Both the position numbers and the translations under genes were made by a program. Positions 2,543-56,349 of a stretch of 64,000 nt of DNA are shown here, piece by piece (the first letter of the stretch is position 1; every line of letters starts with the position of its first letter). The notes under the pieces were generated by a model, which made no database searches, was not told the DNA's origin, and was given only the letters and a program-made list of their open reading frames with translations. Origin of the DNA: Mobula hypostoma (taxonomy: Eukaryota); assembly GCF_963921235.1 (NCBI RefSeq), contig NC_086097.1, positions 163,496,001 to 163,560,000 on the forward strand, read 5' to 3'.

Positions 2543-3250
2543 ATTGGTATTGGCATTGGTGTACAGTATTATTGCTTTGTGTACAACGATACAGGGAAAA
2601 GCTTGTTCTACATACTGTTTATGCAGATGAATTCATTATGCAGTGCATTGAACTAGAATAAGGTGAACCAACAACAATGCAGAATATAGTGTAAAAACTC
2701 ACACAAAAACGCAGTGAAGCTAACAATAAAGTGCAAAATCACAACTAAGTAGATTGAGGACATGAATCTATCTTATTGTACAAGAGGTCCATACAAGACT
2801 CTGATAACAGTGGGATAGAAGATGTTCTTGAGCCTCGTGGTACGTCCTTTCAAGCTTTTGTATCTTCTGCCTGATGGGAGAGGGAAGAGGAAAGATTGTC
2901 TGTAGCTGATGGGATCTTTGATTATGTTGGCTGCTTTACTGAGGCAGCGAGAAATCTAGACAGCATCCATGGAAAAGAGGTTGGCTTCTTTGATGTGCTG
3001 AGCTGTGTTTATAGCTCTCTGCAGTTTCTTGCAGTCACGTTCAGTAGAGTTGCTTTATGAAGCCGTCCAGATAGAGTGCTTTCGATGGTACATCAATAAA
3101 AGATTGGTGAGAGTGAAAGGAGACATGTAAAGTTTCTTGAGCTTCCTGAGGAAGTAGAGGCATTGGTGAGTTTTCTTAGTTGTGACATCAACGTGGTTGG
3201 TCCAGAACAGGTTGTTGCTGAGTTTGTAACTCGGATCTTGAAGCTCTCAG
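2543..3250 (-). mobile_element. Rex1/Babar LINE 3' fragment, degenerate
   Basis: (attggt)n-like tail, and homology to copies at ~3410-3595, 15580-15790, 52795-53460 and 62730-62930. Confidence 0.7.
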
Positions 3251-3742
3251 TCCTCTGTCTATTTGTATGAAAATGACAAGAAGGGTGGCTGACACAATCA
3301 GGATTTCTTATGTACTACAGGCTATGCTCTCTAACTTGGCATTATGAAAAAAATAATGTACCATTTTATGAAAAGCTTACTGTGAATGCATGAATAATTA
3401 GTGTTGATAATGATTTATTATTGTCACATGTACAAAGATATAGTGAAAAGCTTGTCTTGCATACTTTTCAAACAGATCAGATCATCATGCAGTGTATTGT
3501 GGTAAAACAACAACGAAGCAGAATAAAGAGTAACAGCTACGGAGAGAGTAAAGTGCAGGTAAACAATAAAGTGTAAGATCATAACAAGGTCGCAGCCAAT
3601 CCCTTACATTGATTTCAAGTTCATAATTCATCACAACGCAGAAGGAGGCCATCCAGCTTATCAAATCTGTGTCAGGTCCCAGAGCAGGTTTCTCGTTTTC
3701 AATTCTCTACTTACTTCCCAGTTACCTATTCTCTCTCAGATG

Positions 3743-4010
3743 TTGGAATGTGGAAGGAGAAGCAAACTGCTGGAGGGAATCTGCAGGTAGGGCAGCAGTT
3801 GTAGTGGGAAATGTACACTTGACGTTTGGGTCAAGACACTTCATCTGAATCAGAATAATAATCAGGTTATTTATCACTGAAGTATGCATGTTGTGAAATA
3901 GACTGGTTGCTAGTTCAGATGAAGGGTTTCGAACCTAAGTGCTAATTGCCCATTTCACACTACCTGTGCTGCCTGACCCAGTGAATTCCTTCACTAGTTT
4001 GTTTTTTGGC
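3743..4010. mobile_element. Degenerate inverted Penelope-like pLTR pair with a Rex1 tail in the middle
   Basis: Arms ~3761-3850 and ~3912-4003 are reverse complements and include a decayed cagatgaagggt hammerhead remnant. Flanks acctattctctctcagatg (3724-3742) and acctattttccctcacatg (4011-4029) look like a TSD. Confidence 0.6.
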
Positions 4011-29254: not shown

Positions 29255-29890
29255 CAATGTCAGCATTAATTTTAAGAGGACTGGAATATAAAAGCTACGA
29301 TGTAATGCTAAGGCTTTATGAGGTGTTGGTCACACCACACTTGAAGGATTGTGAGCAGATTTGGGTTCCTTATCTAACAAAAAATGTGCTGGCATTGGAG
29401 AAGTCCCAGAGGAGATTCATGAGAATGATTCCCAGAATGAAAGGGTTAATGTATGAGGTGTATTTGATGGCTCTGGGCCTGTATTTGCTGGAGTTTAGAA
29501 GAATGAGGGGAAATCTCATTGAAATTTATAAAACAATGAAAGGCCTTGATAGAGTGGAGGTGGAGAGGATATTTCCTATAGTGGGTGAGTCTGGGAGCAG
29601 TGGGCACAGCCTCAAAATAGAGGGACAGCCATTTAGAACAGAGATAAGAGGGAATTTCTTTAGCTAGAGGGCAGTGAATCTGGGAATTTATTGCCACAGG
29701 CATCTGTGGAAGCCAAGTCACTGAGTATATTTAAAATGGAGATTGATAGTTTCTTGGTTCATCAGGGTGTCACAGGTTATGGGAGAAGGCAGAATAATGG
29801 GGTTGAGAGGTTTAATAAATCAGTCATGATGGAGTGGAGCTGACTCAATGGGCTGAGTGGCCCTATTCTGCTCCTGTGTCTTGTATGGTC
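29255..29890 (+). mobile_element. CR1 LINE 3' fragment
   Basis: ORF 29257-29667 (RGLEYKS..LRLY..LEFRRMRGNLIEIYK) plus CR1 3'UTR. Confidence 0.9.
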
Positions 29891-36861: not shown

Positions 36862-37556
36862 TGTAGCCCCCCGGCCACCCTCAGGGTCGCTCGGCTCGCT
36901 GTTGTCTAGGGAAACAGCCTCGGTCCCGCCAAACTGGATAATTCGTTTGTGTGGATGCTGTGTGAGGTACCCCACCCCGCCCAAATAACAGACAATACAC
37001 CAGATGCAATTAAATGATTTACATATTATTGATATTACTGGAACTATATAATTAAAAGAGAATAAAATATAAAAGGAAAATAAAAGGCGCCACACTTGTC
37101 AAAGTTCAATCTCTTCGTGCACAAAAACCGTTGGAGCTCAAGGACCTTCTTCTTCACCCTGCGACCCCCTCGGACCCCCTCGACCGGCCGCCTGGGACCA
37201 ACAACGGTGGTCGACCAGACGCTCCACACGAGTCCGTCTCCGTGTCCTCGCCGAACGTCCCGCTCGGGGTCCGACCCCGTTAGCAGACTCACAGCACCTC
37301 GTCCATCCTCTGTCTCGCTCTCCCGCCTTCTGCCCCAAAACCCCGCGCGTACAGTATCTTCAAATACACCAAAACCACAACAACTATCCCAATTGGTTAA
37401 TAACGTATTTCTTATCACCCTCTAAACCACAACAAGCTGCTAGTGCAAACTTTCTCAGCGTTTAACACAACAAAGCTGTATTCCCCAGATTAACATAACA
37501 AAGACGCCATTTTAATTAGCCTCCGCAGTAACATAAAAAATCAAAACCCCCTTACA
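36862..37556 (-). mobile_element. Solo LTR (695 bp), Gypsy/ERV-type
   Basis: TGTA...TACA termini, exact 4-bp TSD ttag (36858-36861 / 37557-37560), CpG-rich compared with flanks. Orientation inferred. Confidence 0.85.
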
Positions 37557-37690
37557 TTAGTAAGATTGTAACTTGTGCTGGGAATAGTTGCATCATCTCA
37601 ACCTACCTGGTTGTTATAGTACTATTGAATATAGTGGTTGAACATGGTGGTGGTATACATTTGTTTGGGAAGTGTGTGATATGGACAAGG

Positions 37691-38021
37691 TGTGATGTTG
37701 AATCAGGTTCAAGGGTCTGGTGAGTGAGACAGACACACGGACTGTGAATAAGTATATTAATCATCTATTTACAAGATATAGAAACTACAAAGCTGAATAT
37801 TCAACAAACATAATAAGATAAGAGCATGCGCAGAGCATACCTTCCCTATGGTTTTGTTACCACTTGCCCTAAATAAAGGACAAAGAGAGCAAGCCCCTTC
37901 CATGTGCGATTTTACACCCGGGATATTTGAAACTGGACACCAATGGGAAAAGCGGCTGCAGTTTCTAATCTAACCAATCACGTCAAAGTGACTTTCGACG
38001 TGTGGAATAAACCAAAGGACT
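37691..38021 (-). repeat. 3' LTR of the ERV
   Basis: Colinear with 40155-40385 plus 43005-43022 plus 43359-43484; preceded on the - strand by PPT aggggtggag (38031-38022). Confidence 0.85.
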
Positions 38022-38059
38022 CTCCACCCCTCGCAAGTTGAGACTGTGATGATCCAACC

Positions 38060-38325
38060 CTCGGACTTGGATGACTCCTGCGAACTCCCAACTAAGCTAT
38101 ATATAAAACGCAAAAGTACAATACCCAGTACTGTAAACCCAATAGTCACCTCCTAGTGTACTACAGTAGTCCACCAGCCTCCCTGCACCCTAAAAAGCCA
38201 CCAGCCCCACCCTGTGTAATAGCTAATGAGCTGGTCCCCCACTTAATTTTAAACACTGACTCTCAGATATGATCAACCAGGTGAGTAATGTTCTCCAACC
38301 TGTCAGGAAAATAGGTGCAGCATTC
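38060..38325 (-). pseudogene. env transmembrane-subunit remnant
   Basis: - strand reads ECCTYFPDRLENITHLVDHI*ESVFKIK (end of CX6CC plus HR2), then Trp-rich GWGWWLFRVQGGWW and hydrophobic VTIGFTVLGIVLLRFIYSL. Confidence 0.75.
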
Positions 38326-38919
38326 CTGAAAAATAAAAGTACAAGTGTAAGCAGGTAATTTAAGGCCTTTGAAATCAGTTCCTGGGACAGTCTAGTCATA
38401 CCATGCTAAGAAAGGCTACCATTCAAAACCTTCCTTCCTTTGTGATAGCCCTCTTACAACCAGCACAGGGAATGTGCTCATCCAGGACACTGGGGTGGCA
38501 GACATACAGCACCACATATCAACCGCACCACCTGCAGAACCACGGGTGGGCCTAGGAACTGCATATCCAGTATGTGCCAACCAGCATCCAGCAAGTGCCC
38601 ATCTTCACAACACCATTTGGCATAGACAGCCCTCCCAGGATACTGTTCCTGCTCACCCTTGCCATCCACCTAGCTCCTTGTACCTGAACTCAACATACCA
38701 CATAACCAACACTCTGTCAGGTTCAGAAAACAGGACCTTCCAATTAAATAAATGGTATGTAAGGAAATACCAGCCCTCAATACTAGGGCTATTAAGGCTC
38801 AAGCCTCTTAAGGCTGTTACCATACTCTGGGTTGAGTTTGGCTGGAATGGACTACTCGCTCCCAGCTCCTCCAAAACAGAATGTCAAACCCGAGAAACCA
38901 GATAATTCCCCCGCAGACT

Positions 38920-40110
38920 TCTCCTTGTGAAAGGGACCAATATCAGTTGCATCCTTTCCGTGATGTAATAAGGAGTCCTCATTAACCCTATTGTGGTATA
39001 ATTCTGAGTTAAGAGCCCACTAGTGTAAAACTTTAGTGCCCTCTTCTAATGTGCTCCATTGCACTTGGGGTTTCAAATTCCATTCAGTGAGAGAAGGATC
39101 TGAAATGTAACTGCAGCTGTTAATTGAACCCATAGTGATTCATTATGCTCAGGGGAATCAAGCAGCATTCTCAGGGCATTATAGGTCACATGTTCGGATG
39201 ATAGGCTCCCTAAAGCACCCACCTCTCTATCAGATAGGCTCCCTCTGGTACCCCCCTTATCCCATATCGTCAATAACCACATGGTCAAAGACCCTGCAAC
39301 CCACTGTCTGTACCTATCTCCTAAACTCACTAATTCCTTAGCGGAGAATTCTCTGAGCTCTGTTGTCTCGAAGGTGCCCATTGTACTATCCCCCACACAT
39401 CCCTGATCCTTCCCCTCCTGAAAGGAAGAAGCTGCAGGCCAATGCCGTCCACGGCGGGTGTGGGAGCGTGTGATCACTGGCCTGGCCTGCACTGTTTTGG
39501 ACACGCAGGGGAGAGGGTGATGATTTTGCAGATTAAACTGAGGGGTCCACACTACCCTCTCTCTCTCATTTCCATCATCCTGTCAGACAGCCCATCCCCC
39601 AACCCCACAGGAGGATCATCGCCCCACCTCATCAAGGCTTGAACCTTAACAGGATCGGGCTGCCAACCAGCTCAGCATGCTACTTCGAAGTGCTGTGGCT
39701 TCATTAGCTGACAAGCTATCTCGTATCCTCTCACATTCTTATCCTCTAAGTTTGCAGCTCGAGTTTGGGCCATCAACAATGATTTTCTCAGAACAGTACA
39801 GCGCTGACTTAATTTTTCCAATACATTCTTCAGACTCTGTATACTGATGTCTTGCAATCACTGCAAATAGCCAGAAAGCATCCCACCAGCTATCCTTTCT
39901 CCAGGGAAAACCCATCAATTTAAATATAGAAACAATGTGGAGTCCCATTTCACCCCCCAGTGAAATCTAACTGGTCTGACCAATCTATTGGCATTCCATA
40001 ACCCATCAGTAAGTTAGCAAGACATCCAAAGCCTGCACTGTTATCTGTTCACCGTGGGACTCTGCATCTCTCATATGGAGGTTCTCTTTTTTTAAATAAC
40101 CTTTTTAGGA
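38920..40110 (-). pseudogene. ERV-L/Fv1-like gag, decayed
   Basis: Ordered motifs: LANLLMGYGMPIDW; coiled coil (ORF 39672-39857); VKVQAL; FSAKELVSLGDRYRQ..WLLTIWDKGG..LSDREVGALGSLS (ORF 39073-39552; cf. ERV-L YTxKELxxFSNLYxQ..WILRVWDNGG); QWSTLEEG. Confidence 0.8.
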
Positions 40111-40135
40111 AATGCACTTATGCTTAAAAAGACAT

Positions 40136-40153
40136 ACCTGCTCGCAGCAGCGA
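40136..40153 (-). promoter_or_regulatory. Primer-binding-site-like motif (tRNA-Ser type, degenerate)
   Basis: tcgctgctgcgagcaggt directly after the 5' LTR; resembles the complement of tRNA-Ser 3' ends (TGGCGC[A/T]G[C/T]GAGCAGG). Confidence 0.55.
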
Positions 40154-40387
40154 GTGTGATGTTGAATTAGGTTTGCGGGTCTGGCAAGTGAGACAGGACA
40201 TGCTGACTTCAAATAGGTGCATTAATAATTTATTTACAAACAGTAAAAATTTGACTAATCATTCATGTTTACCAAGTTACGGAGGCTTCAACAAATGTAC
40301 TTAGTTAAAAGCATACACAGAGCTTAGCTTCCCATTGGTGACATGCACCACTTGCCTGAAGCAAAGGAAGAAGAGAACAAGCCAATC

Positions 40388-41240
40388 CAGAATCCGAATC
40401 AGGCTTATTATCACCAGCGTGTGACATGAAATTTGTTAACTTAGCAGCAGTTCAATGCAATACATAATCTAGGAAAAAAACCTGAAATAATATAATAATA
40501 AATAAGTAAATCAATTACAGTATACATATATTGAATAGATTGAAAACCATGCAATAAAACAGAAATAATATATGTTAAAAAAAGTGAGGTAGTGTCCATG
40601 GGTTCAATGTCCATTTTGGAATTGGATGGCAGAGGGGAAGAAGCTGTTCCTGAATTGCTGAATGTGTACCTCCTGGCTTCTGTACCTCCTACCTGATTGT
40701 AACAGTGAGTAAAGGGCATGCCCTGGGTGCTGGAGGTCCTTAATAATGGACGCTGCTTTTCTGAGACACCGCTCCCTAATGATGTCCTGGGTACTTTGTA
40801 GGCTCATATTCAAGATGGAACCAACTAAATTTACAACCCTCTGCAGCTTTTTTCGGTCCTATGCAGTAGGCCCCCAACCCCCATACCAGATAGTGATGCA
40901 GTCTGTCAGAATGCTGTCCACCATACACCTATAGAAGTTTTTGAGTGTATTTGCTGACATACTAAATCTCTTCAAACTCCTACTGAAGTATAGTCACTAT
41001 CTTGCCTTCTTTATAATGGCATCGGTATGTTTGGACAGGTTAGATCCTCAGAGATCTTTACATCCAGGAGCTTGAAACTGCTCACTCTCTCCACTTCTGA
41101 TCCCTCTATGAGGATTGGTATGTGTTCCTTCATCTTGCCCTTCCTGAAGTCCACAATCAGCTCTTTTGTCTTACTGACGTTGAGTGCCAGGTTGTTGCTG
41201 CGACACCACTCCACTAGTTGGCATAGCTCACTCCTGTACA
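40388..41240 (-). mobile_element. Rex1/Babar 3' fragment inside the ERV 5' LTR
   Basis: ORFs 41011-41241 (NNLALNVSKTKELIVDFRK) and 40604-40813. Confidence 0.9.
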
Positions 41241-41492
41241 TCTGTGCTGTATCTCAACAAATAAAAAAAAATAAAAGTTCATTAAAGTATGTAACAAACC
41301 TTTTAGATCCTCCCTTTCTCCAAGCAACTAAGAAAATTTATGAGATATACATTATCAAGAAAGTAGGCAGAGGATAAAAGGGAGGTGTAGATTAAGTGAG
41401 CAGCAAAGAACCAAAAAAAAATGTGGAAAAGCTTTTTCACAAAGTAAATGACAGTGTGTTAGAGTACTCTGCCTAAAAGCATGCAGACTCAT

Positions 41493-43004
41493 TAGAATTA
41501 GAATCAGGTTTATTATCACCGGCACTGGACGTGAAATTTGTTAACTTAGCAGCAGCAGTTCAATGCAATACATAATCTAACAGAGAGAAAAAAATAATAA
41601 TAAATAAAATAAAACATAATAAACAAGTATATCAATTACGTATATCAAATAGATTTTTTTAAATGTGCAAAAAACAGAAATAGTGTATATTAAAAAAAGT
41701 AGTGTCCAAAGCTTCAATGTCCATTTAGGAATCGGATGGCAGAGGGGAAGAAGCTGTTCCTGAATCGCTAGTGTGTGCCTTCAGGCTTCTGTATCTCCTA
41801 TCTGATGGTAACAGTGAGAAAAGGGCATGCCCTGGGTGCTGGATGTCCTTAATAATGGACGCTGCCTTTCTGAGACACTGCTCCCCAAAGATGTCCTGGG
41901 TACTTTGTAGGCTAGTGCCCAAGATGGAGCTGACTAGACTTAACAACATTCTGCAGCTTCTTTCGGTCCTGTGCAGTAAGCCCCCCATACCAGACAGTGA
42001 TGCGGCCTGTCAGAATACTCTCCACAGTACAACTATCGAAGTTTTTGAGTGTATTTGCTGACATGTCAAATCTCTTCAAATTCCTAATGAAGTACAGCTG
42101 ATGTCTTGCCTTCTTTATGACTACATTGATATGTTGGGGCCAGATTAATTCCTCAGAGATCTTGACACTGAGGAACTTGAAGCTGTTCACACTCTCCACT
42201 TCTGATCCCTCTATGAGGATTGGTATGTGCTCCATCGTCTTACCCTTCCTGAAGTCCACAATCAGCTCTTTTGTCTTACTGACGTTGAGTGCCAGGTTGT
42301 TGCTGCGGCACCATTCCACTAGTTGGCATATCTCACTCCTGTACGCCCTCTTGTCACCACCTGAGATTCTACCAACGATGACAATGGTTGTATCGTCAGC
42401 AAATCTATCGATGGTATTTAAGCTATGCCATGTCACTCAGTCATGGGTATATAAAGGGTGAAGCAGTGGGCTAAGCACACGCCAGTGTCGATCGTCAGCG
42501 AGGAGGAGATGTCATCACCAATCCACACAGATTGTGGTCATCCGGTTAGGAAGTCGAGGATCCAATTGCAGAGGGAGGTAAAGAGGCCCAGGTTCTGCAG
42601 GATTGTGCATATGATGGTATTAAATGCTGATCTATAGATGAAGAACAGCATCCTGACATAGGTGTTTGTATTGTCTAGGTGGTCTAAAGCCATGTGAAGA
42701 GCCACTGAGATTGCATCTGCCATTGACCTATTGTGGTGATAGGCAAATTGCAATGGGTCCAGGTCCTTGCTGTGGCAGGAATTCAGTCTAGTTCATGACC
42801 AACCTCTCAAAGCATTTCATCACTGTTGATGTGAATGCTACCAGGCAATGGTCATTAAGGCAGCTCACATTTTTCTTCTTAGGCACTGGTATAATTTTTG
42901 CCTTTTTGAACCAAGTGGGAACTTCCACCCATAGCACTGAGAGATTGAAAATGTCCTTGAATACTCCCACCAGTTGATTGGCACAGGTTTTCAGAGCCTT
43001 ACCA
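41493..43004 (-). mobile_element. Rex1/Babar RT fragment inside the ERV 5' LTR
   Basis: ORFs 42788-42970 (IIPVPKK..MKCFERLV), 42538-42753 ([14 protein letters not shown]), 41912-42436 (FADDTT). Confidence 0.92.
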
Positions 43005-43022
43005 GGCCCACATGCTATTTTA

Positions 43023-43357
43023 TTGAATGGTGAAAGGGCTTGATAGAATTGATGTAGAGAGTATGTTTCCTAAGGTGGGAGTGTCTAAGACCAGAGGGGG
43101 CATCCCTTTTGAATGGAGATGAGGAGGGATTTCTTTAGGCAGAGACTGGTGAATCTGTGGAATTCTTCACTACAGGTAGCTGGCGAGGCCAAATCTTTAT
43201 GTATAGGTAAGACAGCGGTTAATAGATTCTTGTTGGTCAGGGCATGAAGGGATACAGGGAAATTACAGGAGTTTGGGGCTGAGAGGAAAATGGGATCAGC
43301 CATGACGAGACTCGATAGCCCAAATGGCCTAGTTCTGCTCCTACGTCTGGTGGTCTT
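43023..43357 (+). mobile_element. CR1 3' fragment inside the ERV 5' LTR
   Basis: gggcttgatagaattgatgtagagagtatgtttcc...ggtgaatctgtggaattc...aaatggcctagttctgctcct. Confidence 0.8.
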
Positions 43358-44090
43358 ATACCCAGGATATCTGAAACTGTACACCAGGTGGCTAGGGTGG
43401 GAAAAGCAGTTGCAGTTTCTAAACTCACCAATCATAATGAAGTGACTTTCGACAGACAGAATAAGCCGCAACCCGCTCAGGACACAAGGGATCTTGATAA
43501 GATTCTGTTTGACAGTTTTTTCAAATACTTTTTGCTTTAAGTAACTAACTTACACCTCATTTGGGCTTCCTGTAGGAAGAATGGCTCAGGGTTTGGTGTG
43601 GTGGGATAAATGGTGTGATAGATCTGAATTTTCAGCATATCATATCCTTCTGGAGAGTAGGTGACAAAAGCAGAGCAGGCTAACTAAACCACGAGGTGTG
43701 TCCATATCCAAAATAACCAGCTATGGTTTAAATACAATGATTAATGCTGCAACATGAAATGGAGGGGGGTGGATTTGTACTATCACATTTGTTTAAGGTG
43801 TATAAAGACTTCCACATTCAAAATATTTATGAATCACAGTATCAGTTCGGAAACACCTGCCCTCAGTAGTATTGTTTACGATGTTTTCTGTGACTGTTAC
43901 TTGTATTTTGGTTTGAACTATGAATTTTCACCATGTTGATATTTGATTACTGTTGTCACATGCACTGAACATGTAACAAGGGTCTCCTTCGTCCTTCTAT
44001 ACAGGCCGTGCATCTCAAACAAATGTAAATGATGCATTTTTCACATGTGCCCTTGGGTTTGTATATTGTCAATTGTCCCAAGGTTTAATC

Positions 44091-44310: not shown

Positions 44311-45104
44311 CAGCATTTATTGCTACAGTATGCCAATTTGCAGTAATGACAAATAATCTGTACTGTCACATTTGCGCACATTTATTCTGTTTTGTTCTGG
44401 TATGAAATTCATTTTAGAGTAAAGGTATGTGGTGTGGATGATTTGTTTAATTTGCACATAGTGAATTCAGAACAGTATGACTGGGATTTGTGGTGTTGTG
44501 AGAGAGATTTATGAATGCCTGCCAAAGACAGAGGTATAAATTATAAGAAGTTGCAATTGGAACAATCAGTATCCTAAAGCTGGAATATCCCCAGGACAAT
44601 TTTTTTCTGGTAGGTCTACTCCTGGTTAATTGTGCTGTTTCCATTCTTCAGTTATTTTAACCCTTGTGAGAGAGCCAGCAAAATCAACAACTCAAACACT
44701 GAAATAAGCCCACTGTGTCTGTGCTGACAATGATGTCGAGTTAAACCACACTCTCTCAAGTACAAGGACTTCACTCACCTCCTCGGATACCCCTGGCCGA
44801 CAAGAAAGGACTTTACTAGTATACTAAGAGCAAACCAGTAGTCATGCAGACTGTTGGTTCTCTTGAGGATCAGTGTGATGATCTACATGTGGAACTACAG
44901 GAGTCTTAAGTAAGAGCATAAGACAAAATGTGTCTAGTTGGTACACACTGTGTAGAAGGACTTGGCAGCTACTGAGTTCAGGGGAGTAAATCACTGATGT
45001 CCTGCAGCATTTCAACATTTCAAAGGGGGAAGTGTTGCAAATCTTGAAATGCATACAGCTGGATAAACCTCAGATCCTGACCAGATATATCCTAGGTTGT
45101 TATA

Positions 45105-45620
45105 AGCCCATAACACATAGGAGCAGAATTAGGCCATTCAGCCCATCAAGACTGCTGTGCCATTCCATCATGGCTGGTTTATTATTCCTCTCAACTCCAT
45201 TCTCCCGTCTCCTTCGATGCCCAGACTAATCGAGAACCTATCAACCTCTGCTTTAAATATACTCAGTAACTTGGCCTCCACAGCCATCTCTGCAATGAGT
45301 TCCACAGATTTACACCCCTCTGACTAAAGAAATTCCTCCTCATGTCTGGACTACATGGACATCCCTTTATTCTGAGGGATCTGGTCCTGGACTCCCACTA
45401 TAGGAAACATCCTCTCCACATCCACTCCATCTAGGCCTTTTAATATGTGATAGGTTTCAATGAGATCCCCCCTCATTCTTCTAAACATCAGTTAGTACAG
45501 GCCCAAAGCTATCATATGCTCCTCATATGTTAATCCTTTCATTCCTGGACTCATTTTTGTGAAACTCCTCTGGACCTTTTCCAATGCCAGCACATATTTT
45601 TCTTAGATAAGGGTTCCTTT
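45105..45620 (-). mobile_element. CR1 3' fragment
   Basis: cataggagcagaattaggccattcagccc tail and antisense ORF2 end. Confidence 0.8.
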
Positions 45621-54323: not shown

Positions 54324-55875
54324 ATGCCGTCCATTCATAAATTACTACTCGCTGTGCAGGACAGAAAATTCCTCTTGTGGACAATCTCACATTGTGTTAA
54401 CGTGTCCTCAATAATTTTTTCTTTTACATACAGTCTGACATAGGGCACTGCAGCACAGGAGCAGGCTCTTTGGCACATCTCGTCCATGCCAAGCTGTCAC
54501 TCTGTCAACCCACACCTCAACCACGGCCATCGGTACCCCACCCATCCATGTACTAATCCACCCTTCTCTTAAATATTGCAACCAAACTCACATCCACCAC
54601 TTCCGCAAGCAATGCATTCCACACTCAGACCACCCCTCAGGATCCCCGTAAACATTCCACCTTTCGTTCTAGTCCCTCCCTGAAGGAGATGGATGACTGA
54701 CTCATCTCTACTGCAATCCCTGCAAAGGCAGAATGTTGTTGCGTTGAGTCCTTAGCTGACCATGATAAGCTCAGAAGAACACAGCAAGTAGAAGCAGGTG
54801 CAGGCCATTTGGCCCCTTGTAGCTGCTCCACTGTCCCATATGATCGTGACTGATCTTTTACATCAATATCATTTTCCTCCTGTCTCTCTCAATACACAGA
54901 AATCTATCATTCTGTACTTAATGGTGGACAACCTGCTATTCAGCTGCTCATGTGTGTTACAAACACTTGAATGAAATGTTGGTACTCGGGAAACCAAAAT
55001 ATTATTCAAATAACAAATGCTTCTTTCTGCCTTTTAAAAATCTTCTCTCTTCTCTCATTGGTGGAACAAGAACTTTCAATAGTATAGGAAATGGGAAGAA
55101 GTATAAACGTGATGACAGAGAAGCATTTGCAGTGGAGTAGTTGTCAAAGTCTATTTTATTGCCATATGCTCAAGTACATATTTGCACAGGTGCAATGTAA
55201 AGCTAGCTTTCGGTAGCATCACAGGCACATAGCTTCATTCATATAAACAGCATTTCCAAAACAAAACATAACTTATAAACAATTATGGGCCAGTTTAATG
55301 GTAGTGTTGATAAAATTTGTCAACAGGATGTGGCTGGTGTTCTGGTGGAGAGTTGCATGGTACCAAGAGAAGGAAGTGTGGAATGGCATGAAAGAATGGC
55401 ACTGAGCCAAATCAGTAATCAGCAGGGCTAGGTATGATACAAATTGTTGAGGAATGCAGGCAGGAACAGTGGTCAACTGCGGAGTAGGAATTGTCCTGGG
55501 AAGGACAATTCCTATTGAAAATTAAGTGAAAATAATGTGTTTCAAATTAAGAAAACTCTATACAAAATCTATCGTAATGAGAACTGGAGAAGGTTCGAAG
55601 TCTATGGAAGGTTAATTCTATTAACCTCTATTAATCAACCACTGAGGCTTTTTAAATAAATTAGGCAGGCTTTGATGGATTTTTAATTGTGCAAACATGT
55701 CCACTATATTCAGAGAAAAGCTAAAAAGTTTTAAAGGGTGTTCTAAATGCTATTTAAATGTTGCCTGGGAATTATTTCTCTGTTGTTTATTTATATATAA
55801 TTTGCTGTATTGTTTTGATGCTGCTTCACCTCTAGGATTCAGCGCCAAACAGACGAGCTTAGCTACTTTTTACAG

Positions 55876-56090
55876 TAAACACGAGGAATTCTGCAGATGC
55901 TGGAAGTTCAAGCAACACACATCAAAGTTGCTGGTGAACGCAGCGGGCCAGGCAGCATCTCTAGGAAGAGGTACAGTCGACGTTTCGGGCCGAGACCCTT
56001 CGTCAGGGTCTCGGCCCGAAACGTCGACTGTACCTCTTCCTAGAGATGCTGCCTGGCCCGCTGCGTTCACCAGCAACTTTGATGTGTATT
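55876..56090. mobile_element. Young fold-back Penelope-like pLTR insertion (perfect 83-bp palindrome)
   Basis: Arms 55917-55999 and 56005-56087 are exact reverse complements around a 5-nt loop; perfect 14-bp TSD gctactttttacag (55862-55875 / 56091-56104). Confidence 0.95.
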
Positions 56091-56349
56091 GCTACTTTTT
56101 ACAGATATGTTTTGGGAATGAAGAGTTGAATACTAGATGGCACAAAGGTAGGGGTGGGGTAGATTCTTTAGTCTGTTAACAAGTGTAGCTGATGAGCTCA
56201 AAACCTCTGAGATAGGGGAAATAATGAGGGGATAGGAGTGGGAGGGTGACAGGTGGGGGTGTATTAACTATCAAACTGACTTGATTACTTGACCATCATA
56301 ATGAAAATAATCATGTTTCTACATAGAAGCATTTTTATATTGAAAAATA

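What the first reader, a model, noticed from the sequence alone, without database searches (positions are those of the whole stretch)
37691..43484. Pol-less class III (ERV-L/ERV-S-like) provirus with gag and env remnants in an apparent cartilaginous fish
Seen: after removing nested LINEs, the - strand gives TSD(caagg)-LTR-PBS-gag-(~600 bp unassigned)-env TM-PPT-LTR-TSD, with only ~2.1 kb of internal sequence (38022-40154) and no RT, RNase H or integrase motifs that I could find. Established: the WLLxxWDxGG / KVxAL / WxTxEEG gag motifs, the 5-bp TSD and the GGGGTGGA-TGTCCT PPT/LTR junction are typical of ERV-L/ERV-S lineages best known from amniotes (also the source of Fv1), and mammalian MaLRs are pol-less relatives. 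Inference: this may be a MaLR-like non-autonomous family in elasmobranchs. The LTRs differ at roughly a fifth of positions in my hand count of the first ~85 bp, so the insertion is old.
Basis: partly seen in the sequence, partly recalled or inferred. Interest (0 to 1): 0.75.

Follow-up and report, generated by a model that had tools for sequence, protein, structure and literature searches.

The report
Shrunken ancient retrovirus family in rays
This is a long-dead copy of an ancient retrovirus that kept most of its capsid gene and scraps of its envelope gene but lost its copying enzymes, and it probably spread in that shrunken form with borrowed enzymes, a known retroviral habit seen here in what appears to be a ray.

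Summary
The provirus is real: 5-bp target duplication, TGT...ACA ends, LTRs 23% different, 2,133 internal bases, no pol motif. Gag is class III (ERV-L/ERV-S/Fv1 type): its best relatives are electric-ray (Narcine) Gag-like proteins, one named 'Fv1-like', colinear over most of its length. So the ancestor was an ERV-S-like virus with a full gene set, not a MaLR. Contigs from two species show a family of tens of internal copies and hundreds of LTRs; diverged relatives share the shortened env, and a few hold gag end and env in one contig. Coverage by relatives is thinnest exactly at the gag/env join, so a family-wide loss of pol is likely but not shown. Class III ERVs are already reported as the main ERV class of cartilaginous fish, and an amplified deleted ERV-S subfamily is published for Xenopus. 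Verdict: an undescribed member of a known kind; modest interest.

The parts
43485..43489 (.). target site duplication, upstream copy (caagg on +)
43358..43484 (-). 5' LTR, first piece (U3; starts TGT)
   Evidence: 82 matches, 20 mismatches to 3' LTR in local alignment
43023..43357 (-). nested LINE 3' fragment (later insertion)
   Evidence: 65-77% alike to other repeats in the window, e.g. 45104-45440, 29537-29767
43005..43022 (-). 5' LTR, short middle piece (approximate ends)
   Evidence: 12 of 15 matches to 3' LTR 37914-37900; weak on its own
40388..43004 (-). two nested LINE 3' fragments of one family (40389-41239 and 41494-about 43004) with a spacer of about 250 bases
   Evidence: 83% alike over 870 bases; RVT_1 and ALKBH8_N hits
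40155..40387 (-). 5' LTR, last piece (AATAAA at 40234; ends ACA)
   Evidence: 155 matches, 51 mismatches to 3' LTR
40137..40154 (-). probable primer binding site, decayed; tRNA-Ser is a recalled resemblance, not tested
   Evidence: position directly behind the 5' LTR; searches gave no reference tRNA
38800..40108 (-). class III (ERV-L/S, Fv1-type) gag, nearly full length up to the end of capsid, broken by stops and frameshifts; MHR-like 20-mer at 39312-39253
   Evidence: tblastn of P0004 residues 21-436 in four HSPs, E 2e-12 and 7e-15; weak colinearity to 38800
38725..38800 (-). gag/env join: the gag 3' tail, pro-pol and the env start are missing here; a hydrophobic, signal-peptide-like stretch begins at 38798
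   Evidence: thinnest coverage by relatives at 38730
38455..38724 (-). env SU remnant: NLTECWLC (38723-38700), GTYWIC (38578), furin-like KRA (38455)
   Evidence: motif scans; no profile hit
38090..38454 (-). env TM remnant: ISD-like ALNYLL (38366), CX6CC (38343), membrane anchor (from about 38149); frameshifted
   Evidence: compared by eye
38022..38031 (-). polypurine tract (9 of 10 purines)
37691..38021 (-). 3' LTR, uninterrupted (starts AGT, ends ACA)
37686..37690 (.). target site duplication, downstream copy
   Evidence: a contig of organism B spans it with 2 differences in 281 bases

Best explanation
A dead copy of a defective derivative of an ERV-S-like retrovirus (class III gag, class I 'gamma-type' env). 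Steps: (1) an ancestral virus with gag, pro-pol and env entered the germ line of the host lineage (inferred from gag and env remnants in proviral order); (2) deletions removed the gag tail, all of pro-pol and parts of env, while LTRs, PBS, leader and PPT were kept (shown for this copy); (3) this shrunken RNA was reverse-transcribed and integrated by enzymes of an intact relative, giving a family of copies (shown: multi-copy family and a shortened env shared by diverged relatives; inferred: pol loss before the spread; helper not seen); (4) this copy integrated with a normal 5-bp duplication before organisms A and B split (shown), then decayed and took three LINE pieces in its 5' LTR (shown). 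It has no function of its own today that I could see.
For: Gag: P0002/P0004/P0006 of Narcine bancroftii, one named 'Friend virus susceptibility protein 1-like'; colinear tblastn; top structural row for P0004 is an Fv1 cluster, score 950 against 260 for the next row, though under the tool's naming bar; the MHR-like 20-mer matches the 7 class III rows of a published alignment at 6-10 of 20 positions and the 16 orthoretroviral rows at 1-3 of 20 (hand count). Env: four motif patterns each occur once in the six frames of the 64 kb, in env order. Family: 3,192-3,868 contigs laid per run, all 30 bins covered in 4 of 4 runs; summed depth equals about 23-36 (gag), 62-94 (env) and 181-286 (LTR) single-copy equivalents (the tool warns this is no copy number). 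Shared shortening of env: contigs about 80-86% alike run 38369-38625 with 4 gaps and 38159-38530 with 30 gaps in X5 and X7; 55-65 variant contigs per run cover 38657. Gag end and env in one contig: joints 38628 to 38785/38787 in 2-4 contigs per run and 38671 to 38731 in 1-3. Precedent: eleven structurally similar 4-kb deleted XtERV-S copies, most with their own 5-bp TSD (PMC8278194).
Against: The join is the place least covered by relatives: at 38730 only 0, 2, 1 and 2 variant contigs in X1, X2, X5, X7, against 5-12 at other thin places and 35-65 just beside it, so most relatives do not align there and may carry pol or other breakpoints. The length between the two sides of the bridging joints is 'not known', and records of 11-31 kb exist in these runs. 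Only the best-supported rows of the tables were shown. No autonomous partner was found, and no genome could be searched. Env has no Pfam, PDB or protein-database hit, and the motif patterns were chosen after reading the sequence. Gag colinearity from 38934 to 38800 is weak (25 of 5,000 shuffles; 30 of 42,576 background windows). The short env spacings are judged against one virus only, and one paper reports that fusion peptide and heptad repeats can be absent in anamniote gamma-type Env.
Confidence: 0.65

Rival explanations
1. An ordinary ERV-S-like family that spread with its own pol (with or without a working env); this copy and a few others lost pol afterwards or in isolated replication errors, so there is no non-autonomous lineage.
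For: Deepest coverage trough of the internal region lies at the gag/env join (38730). Clade III RT loci are abundant in cartilaginous fish (2,843 in 6 genomes; PMC11089739). Internally deleted copies are common in ERV families.
Against: Bridging contigs in 4 of 4 runs; two listed records of 567 and 649 bases stop aligning at 38625, three bases from the joint, with only 147 and 229 letters left on the gag side (that they are the bridging contigs is my inference); no loose end near 38700-38800 among the rows shown; the shortened env is shared by diverged relatives.
Confidence: 0.25
2. The 38022-38800 stretch is not env but other captured or unrelated sequence in place of pol, as in the LTR families with host mRNA cargo that earlier notes describe for this genome.
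For: No profile or database hit for env. Earlier unchecked notes report several pol-replaced LTR families in this genome.
Against: CWLC, GTYWIC, ALNYLL and CX6CC-TY are each unique in 64 kb, lie on the gag strand in the order of XtERV-S env and end in a hydrophobic anchor before the PPT; 0 of 5,000 shuffles held three of them together. No Pfam family hit the three frames at a meaningful E-value.
Confidence: 0.06
3. A Gypsy-type or other non-retroviral LTR element whose gag only resembles ERV-L.
For: The feature search for P0004 returned retrotransposon Gag, PEG10 and foamy Gag clusters first, all under 0.9.
Confidence: 0.03

Closest known systems
XtERV-S of Xenopus tropicalis and its deleted copies Xt-S4 to Xt-S22 (Yedavalli et al. 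2021, PMC8278194; text parts 1-3 of 8, passages, supplements 6, 7, 9 and part 1 of 8 read)
   Same: ERV-L-type gag with the same MHR-like pattern, gamma-type env with CW(I/L)C near the SU start, ISD and CX6CC, TGT...ACA LTR ends, 5-bp TSD; a subfamily of structurally similar deleted copies and over 140 solo LTRs.
   Different: XtERV-S is intact and young. [quoted passage not shown] LTR 331 against 705 bases. No direct sequence comparison was possible.
ERV-SA.a-Ppe (Chen et al., bioRxiv 10.1101/2021.11.23.469661; passages and sections 6 and 8 read; supplements closed)
   Same: Class III virus with a class I gamma-type env, from a screen that found such env in 6 cartilaginous fish. 'Ppe' is probably the sawfish Pristis pectinata (my inference; the main text does not spell it out).
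   Different: It has pol, called SnRV-related. Whether it is the autonomous relative of this family could not be checked.
HERV-S, HERVL32 and HERVL66 (Vargiu et al. 2016, PMC4724089; passages read)
   Same: Class III backbone with a class I envelope; the paper finds this in every class III env it saw.
   Different: Mammalian, with pol.
MaLR (MST/MLT/THE) of mammals (PMC4724089 passages; gene content recalled)
   Same: Class III, non-autonomous, no pol, gag-derived sequence kept.
   Different: MaLRs have a single gag-derived frame and no env (recalled) and make up about 4% of the human genome; this element has env remnants and tens to hundreds of copies. It may work like a MaLR; it is not one.
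Narcine bancroftii Gag-like gene models XP_069772250.1 ('Fv1-like'), XP_069792282.1, XP_069797066.1, XP_069743339.1
   Same: Closest sequences found; colinear with the window's gag.
   Different: Only 32-52% identical in the HSPs, so another family; long open frames; their genomic context (pol, env) could not be seen.

Membership tests
Class III ERV (ERV-L/ERV-S) | RT groups with ERV-L/ERV-S in a tree | not testable with these tools
   no pol in this copy; no partner found
Class III ERV (ERV-L/ERV-S) | Gag with the class III MHR-like pattern | tested here: met
   39312-39253 matches class III rows at 6-10 of 20, orthoretroviral rows at 1-3 of 20 (hand count)
Class III ERV (ERV-L/ERV-S) | Gag homology to ERV-L/Fv1-type proteins | tested here: met
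   indirect: window to Narcine 'Fv1-like' proteins; P0004 to Fv1 cluster by predicted structure, under the naming bar; no direct hit to a mammalian ERV-L or Fv1 sequence
Class III ERV (ERV-L/ERV-S) | TGT...ACA ends and 5-bp TSD | tested here: met
   feature as stated; the 3' LTR start reads AGT
Class III ERV (ERV-L/ERV-S) | no zinc knuckle in Gag | tested here: inconclusive
   the gag tail is missing in this copy
ERV-S type | gamma-type env: SU CXXC, ISD, CX6CC, membrane anchor | tested here: met
   by motif and order only (against 25, 74); profile and database searches blank
ERV-S type | serine tRNA primer binding site | tested here: inconclusive
   resemblance is recalled; no reference tRNA obtained
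ERV-L proper | no env; dUTPase after integrase | tested here: not met
   env remnants present; dUTPase region absent with pol
MaLR | no pol | tested here: met
   for this copy; for the family only partly
MaLR | no env-derived sequence (recalled feature) | tested here: not met
MaLR | sequence similarity to MaLR LTRs or internal ORF | not testable with these tools
   no Dfam or Repbase library here
Non-autonomous ERV subfamily | many independent insertions share one deleted structure | tested here: inconclusive
   env shortening shared by dozens of contigs; gag/env join bridged by 2-4 contigs per run, length between not known
Ty3/Gypsy | Retrotrans_gag or Ty3_capsid domain in Gag | tested here: not met
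   no such Pfam hit for P0002-P0005 or the window frames

The most novel reading that the evidence does not exclude
Rays hold an old, independently derived MaLR-like lineage: a class III retrovirus that lost pol and a working env before it spread, kept a nearly whole gag, and reached tens to about a hundred internal copies and hundreds of LTRs on borrowed polymerase. If gag stayed open during the spread, the element built its own capsids and borrowed only Pol, a stage between ERV-S viruses and MaLR-type elements that RT-based screens cannot see.
Probability: 0.4. Interest if true: 0.5.

Novelty: new member of a known kind. Interest (0 to 1): 0.3.

Why it matters
The vertebrate ERV surveys whose passages I read mostly start from Pol or RT, so a pol-less class III family escapes them. 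If the family-wide loss of pol holds, it shows that the route from an enveloped ERV-S-like virus to a non-autonomous gag-keeping element was taken in cartilaginous fish as well as in mammals and frogs, and its old orthologous insertions give a minimum age for ERV-L/S-type gag in this lineage. It does not extend the known host range of class III ERVs and suggests no host function.

Tried and rejected
No whole genome was held, so no copy survey. Pfam on 14 ORFs and 10 further sequences: no gag or env family. PDB sequence search with window gag, window TM and P0004: only chance rows. Word-based protein search with window gag ('longer') and env SU: nothing. P0001, the top-scoring row, is a 37-fold repeat artefact and was dropped (1 of 3 rows). 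L001 from the metagenome scan matched by an 8-residue pattern in an unrelated element and was dropped. Viral contigs: nothing. AlphaFold on P0002 without alignment: pLDDT 34, not used, so no fold search. Atlas on the window's gag ORF: no usable hit. A gag C-terminal 'IDG'-like match at 38871-38773 was considered and left: 70 of 500 shuffles reach it. The bacterial promoter scan and ARAGORN gave nothing of use. LTR dating is too rate-dependent to trust: 63, 139 or 633 My at 2.2e-9, 1e-9 or 2.2e-10 per site and year, and the two LTRs may have differed at integration. Ten paper searches found no description of this family; Hayward et al. 2015 is not held; Dfam and Repbase could not be searched; the closed supplements of the bioRxiv paper may list it or its partner. 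Look-ups in earlier scan notes by words and sequence found no note on it.
Full report
Observation. The element lies on the minus strand from 43484 to 37691, flanked by the same five bases. The 3' LTR (37691-38021) is whole. The 5' LTR is cut into three pieces by LINE fragments at 43023-43357 and 40388-43004; the second insert holds two 3' fragments of one LINE family, 83% alike over 870 bases. The internal region is 2,133 bases and has no RT, protease or integrase pattern.

Gag. A HMMER search of 1.84 billion representatives with one window frame gave 3 rows. One was a repeat artefact. The other two were a Narcine bancroftii protein named 'Friend virus susceptibility protein 1-like' and an unnamed Logan protein; Narcine is a batoid elasmobranch. 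The 540-residue cluster member P0004 aligns by tblastn to 40108-38984 in four colinear pieces over three frames (residues 21-436, E 2e-12 and 7e-15 within the window). Colinearity probably runs on to 38800, the end of capsid, but weakly (25 of 5,000 shuffles). The Atlas structure search ranks an Fv1 cluster first for P0004, well above Gypsy and copia rows but under its naming bar; its feature search gave retrotransposon and foamy Gag clusters below 0.9. The 20 residues at 39312-39253 match the 7 class III rows of the MHR alignment in PMC8278194 at 6-10 positions and the 16 orthoretroviral rows at 1-3 (hand count). No search hit a mammalian ERV-L or Fv1 sequence directly. The gag is therefore class III, nearly full length up to capsid, and dead.

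Env. Directly after 38800 come a hydrophobic stretch (38798), NLTECWLC (38723-38700), GTYWIC (38578), a furin-like KRA (38455), ALNYLL (38366), CX6CC (38343) and a membrane anchor (about 38149), then the PPT. This is the order of the gamma-type env of XtERV-S. Four of the patterns occur once in the six frames of the 64 kb; plain CX6CC occurs 4 times and KRA 22 times; 0 of 5,000 shuffles held three patterns together. The patterns were chosen after reading, and Pfam, PDB and the word-based protein search gave no env hit, so env rests on motifs and order. Against XtERV-S the remnant is short by roughly 130 codons between CWLC and the furin site and 50 between the furin site and the ISD (arithmetic). 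The pol gap thus lies between about 38800 and 38725.

Family. No assembly was available. Eleven runs were listed and four laid on 37400-40395 at 80% likeness: two of organism A, two of organism B, one sample each. Between 3,192 and 3,868 contigs were laid per run (these include a very abundant repeat in the flank) and all 30 bins were covered. Summed depth divided by the depth of single-copy pieces gives 23-36 for gag, 62-94 for env and 181-286 for the LTR; the tool warns that this is no copy number, so I read it only as tens of internal copies and hundreds of LTRs. Organism B has a 281-base contig across flank, TSD and LTR with 2 differences, so the insertion is shared and far older than the split.

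Was the shrunken form amplified? For env, yes: diverged contigs in X5 and X7 run 38369-38625 with 50 differences and 4 gaps, and 38159-38530 with 54 differences and 30 gaps; 55-65 variant contigs per run cover 38657 and 46-51 cover 38580. For pol, probably: 2-4 contigs per run align both at or below 38628 and at or above 38785, and 1-3 bridge 38671 to 38731. Two listed records of 567 and 649 bases stop at 38625 with 147 and 229 letters left on the gag side; if these are the bridging contigs, which I infer but cannot see, there is no room for pol. Against this: the length between the sides is given as not known, records of 11-31 kb exist, only the best-supported rows were shown, and 38730 is the thinnest point of the internal region (0, 2, 1, 2 variant contigs). 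Most relatives do not align across the join, and what they hold there is open.

Mechanism. Most likely (0.65) an ERV-S-like virus gave a deleted derivative that kept the signals needed in cis (LTRs, PBS, leader, PPT) and was copied by the Pol of an intact relative; that such signals suffice is established retrovirology (recalled). The clean TSD and TGT...ACA ends show integrase-made insertion; they do not show whether pol was lost before or after. The rival (0.25) is a family that spread with its own pol, with this copy among a few deleted ones. The identity as a class III provirus with gamma-type env remnants I put near 0.9.

What is known. Clade III ERVs are the majority of ERV RT loci in cartilaginous fish: 2,843 in 6 genomes (PMC11089739, passages). 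The clade holding class III ERVs infects all major vertebrate lineages (PMC6001957, passages). Elephant shark has an SnRV-like lineage (PMC4422223, part 1 of 2; PMC4977317, passages). Gamma-type env was found in 6 cartilaginous fish, with one class III/class I recombinant, ERV-SA.a-Ppe (bioRxiv 10.1101/2021.11.23.469661, passages and sections 6 and 8; supplements closed). Class III ERVs with class I env are the rule in mammals (PMC4724089, passages). XtERV-S has 19 deleted copies, eleven of similar structure (PMC8278194). So each ingredient is published. Ten paper searches found no description of this family; Dfam and Repbase could not be searched. It works like a MaLR if the best reading holds, but it fails the no-env feature and is not filed as one.

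Host. Earlier unchecked notes call this genome a ray. The nearest Gag is from a ray but only 32-52% identical in the HSPs, which does not fix the host; the SINEs in the window look like elasmobranch HE1 by recall only.

Verdict. A real, old, dead provirus of an apparently undescribed ERV-S-like family, probably a non-autonomous subfamily. New member of a known kind; interest 0.3, rising to about 0.5 if a locus survey shows one shared pol-less structure with selection on gag.

Noticed in passing
P0002, P0004, P0005, P0006 (Narcine bancroftii gene models): Four gene models of a class III Gag family 85-90% alike with long open frames, which suggests a young or expressed family in the electric ray. 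P0006 is named 'sperm acrosome-associated protein 9 isoform X1' but its aligned part is Gag: a mis-annotation or an ERV exon joined to a host gene.
   Followed up: partly
window 36900-37540: Another, far more abundant repeat ends about 150 bases beyond the provirus (summed depth 39,000-104,000 against 5-23 for single copy; 60-78 loose ends per run at 37538). On the minus strand it starts with TGTAA, like an LTR.
   Followed up: no
window 40388-43357: Three LINE fragments sit within about 20 bases of one another in the 5' LTR, just behind the TATA-like box, while the 3' LTR and the internal region have none; two are of one family with a 250-base AT-rich spacer.
   Followed up: partly
window 55875-56094: Two SINE copies in inverted arrangement meet at about 56005, forming a long near-palindrome.
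   Followed up: no
window 38793-38817: An 8-base direct repeat lies at the inferred gag/env join; it may relate to a template switch or be chance.
   Followed up: no
window 37981 and 37770-37812: Many relatives diverge from this 3' LTR at the same places (32-33 loose ends at 37981 in X1 and X2), which points to LTR subfamilies and can inflate the LTR-LTR distance.
   Followed up: no
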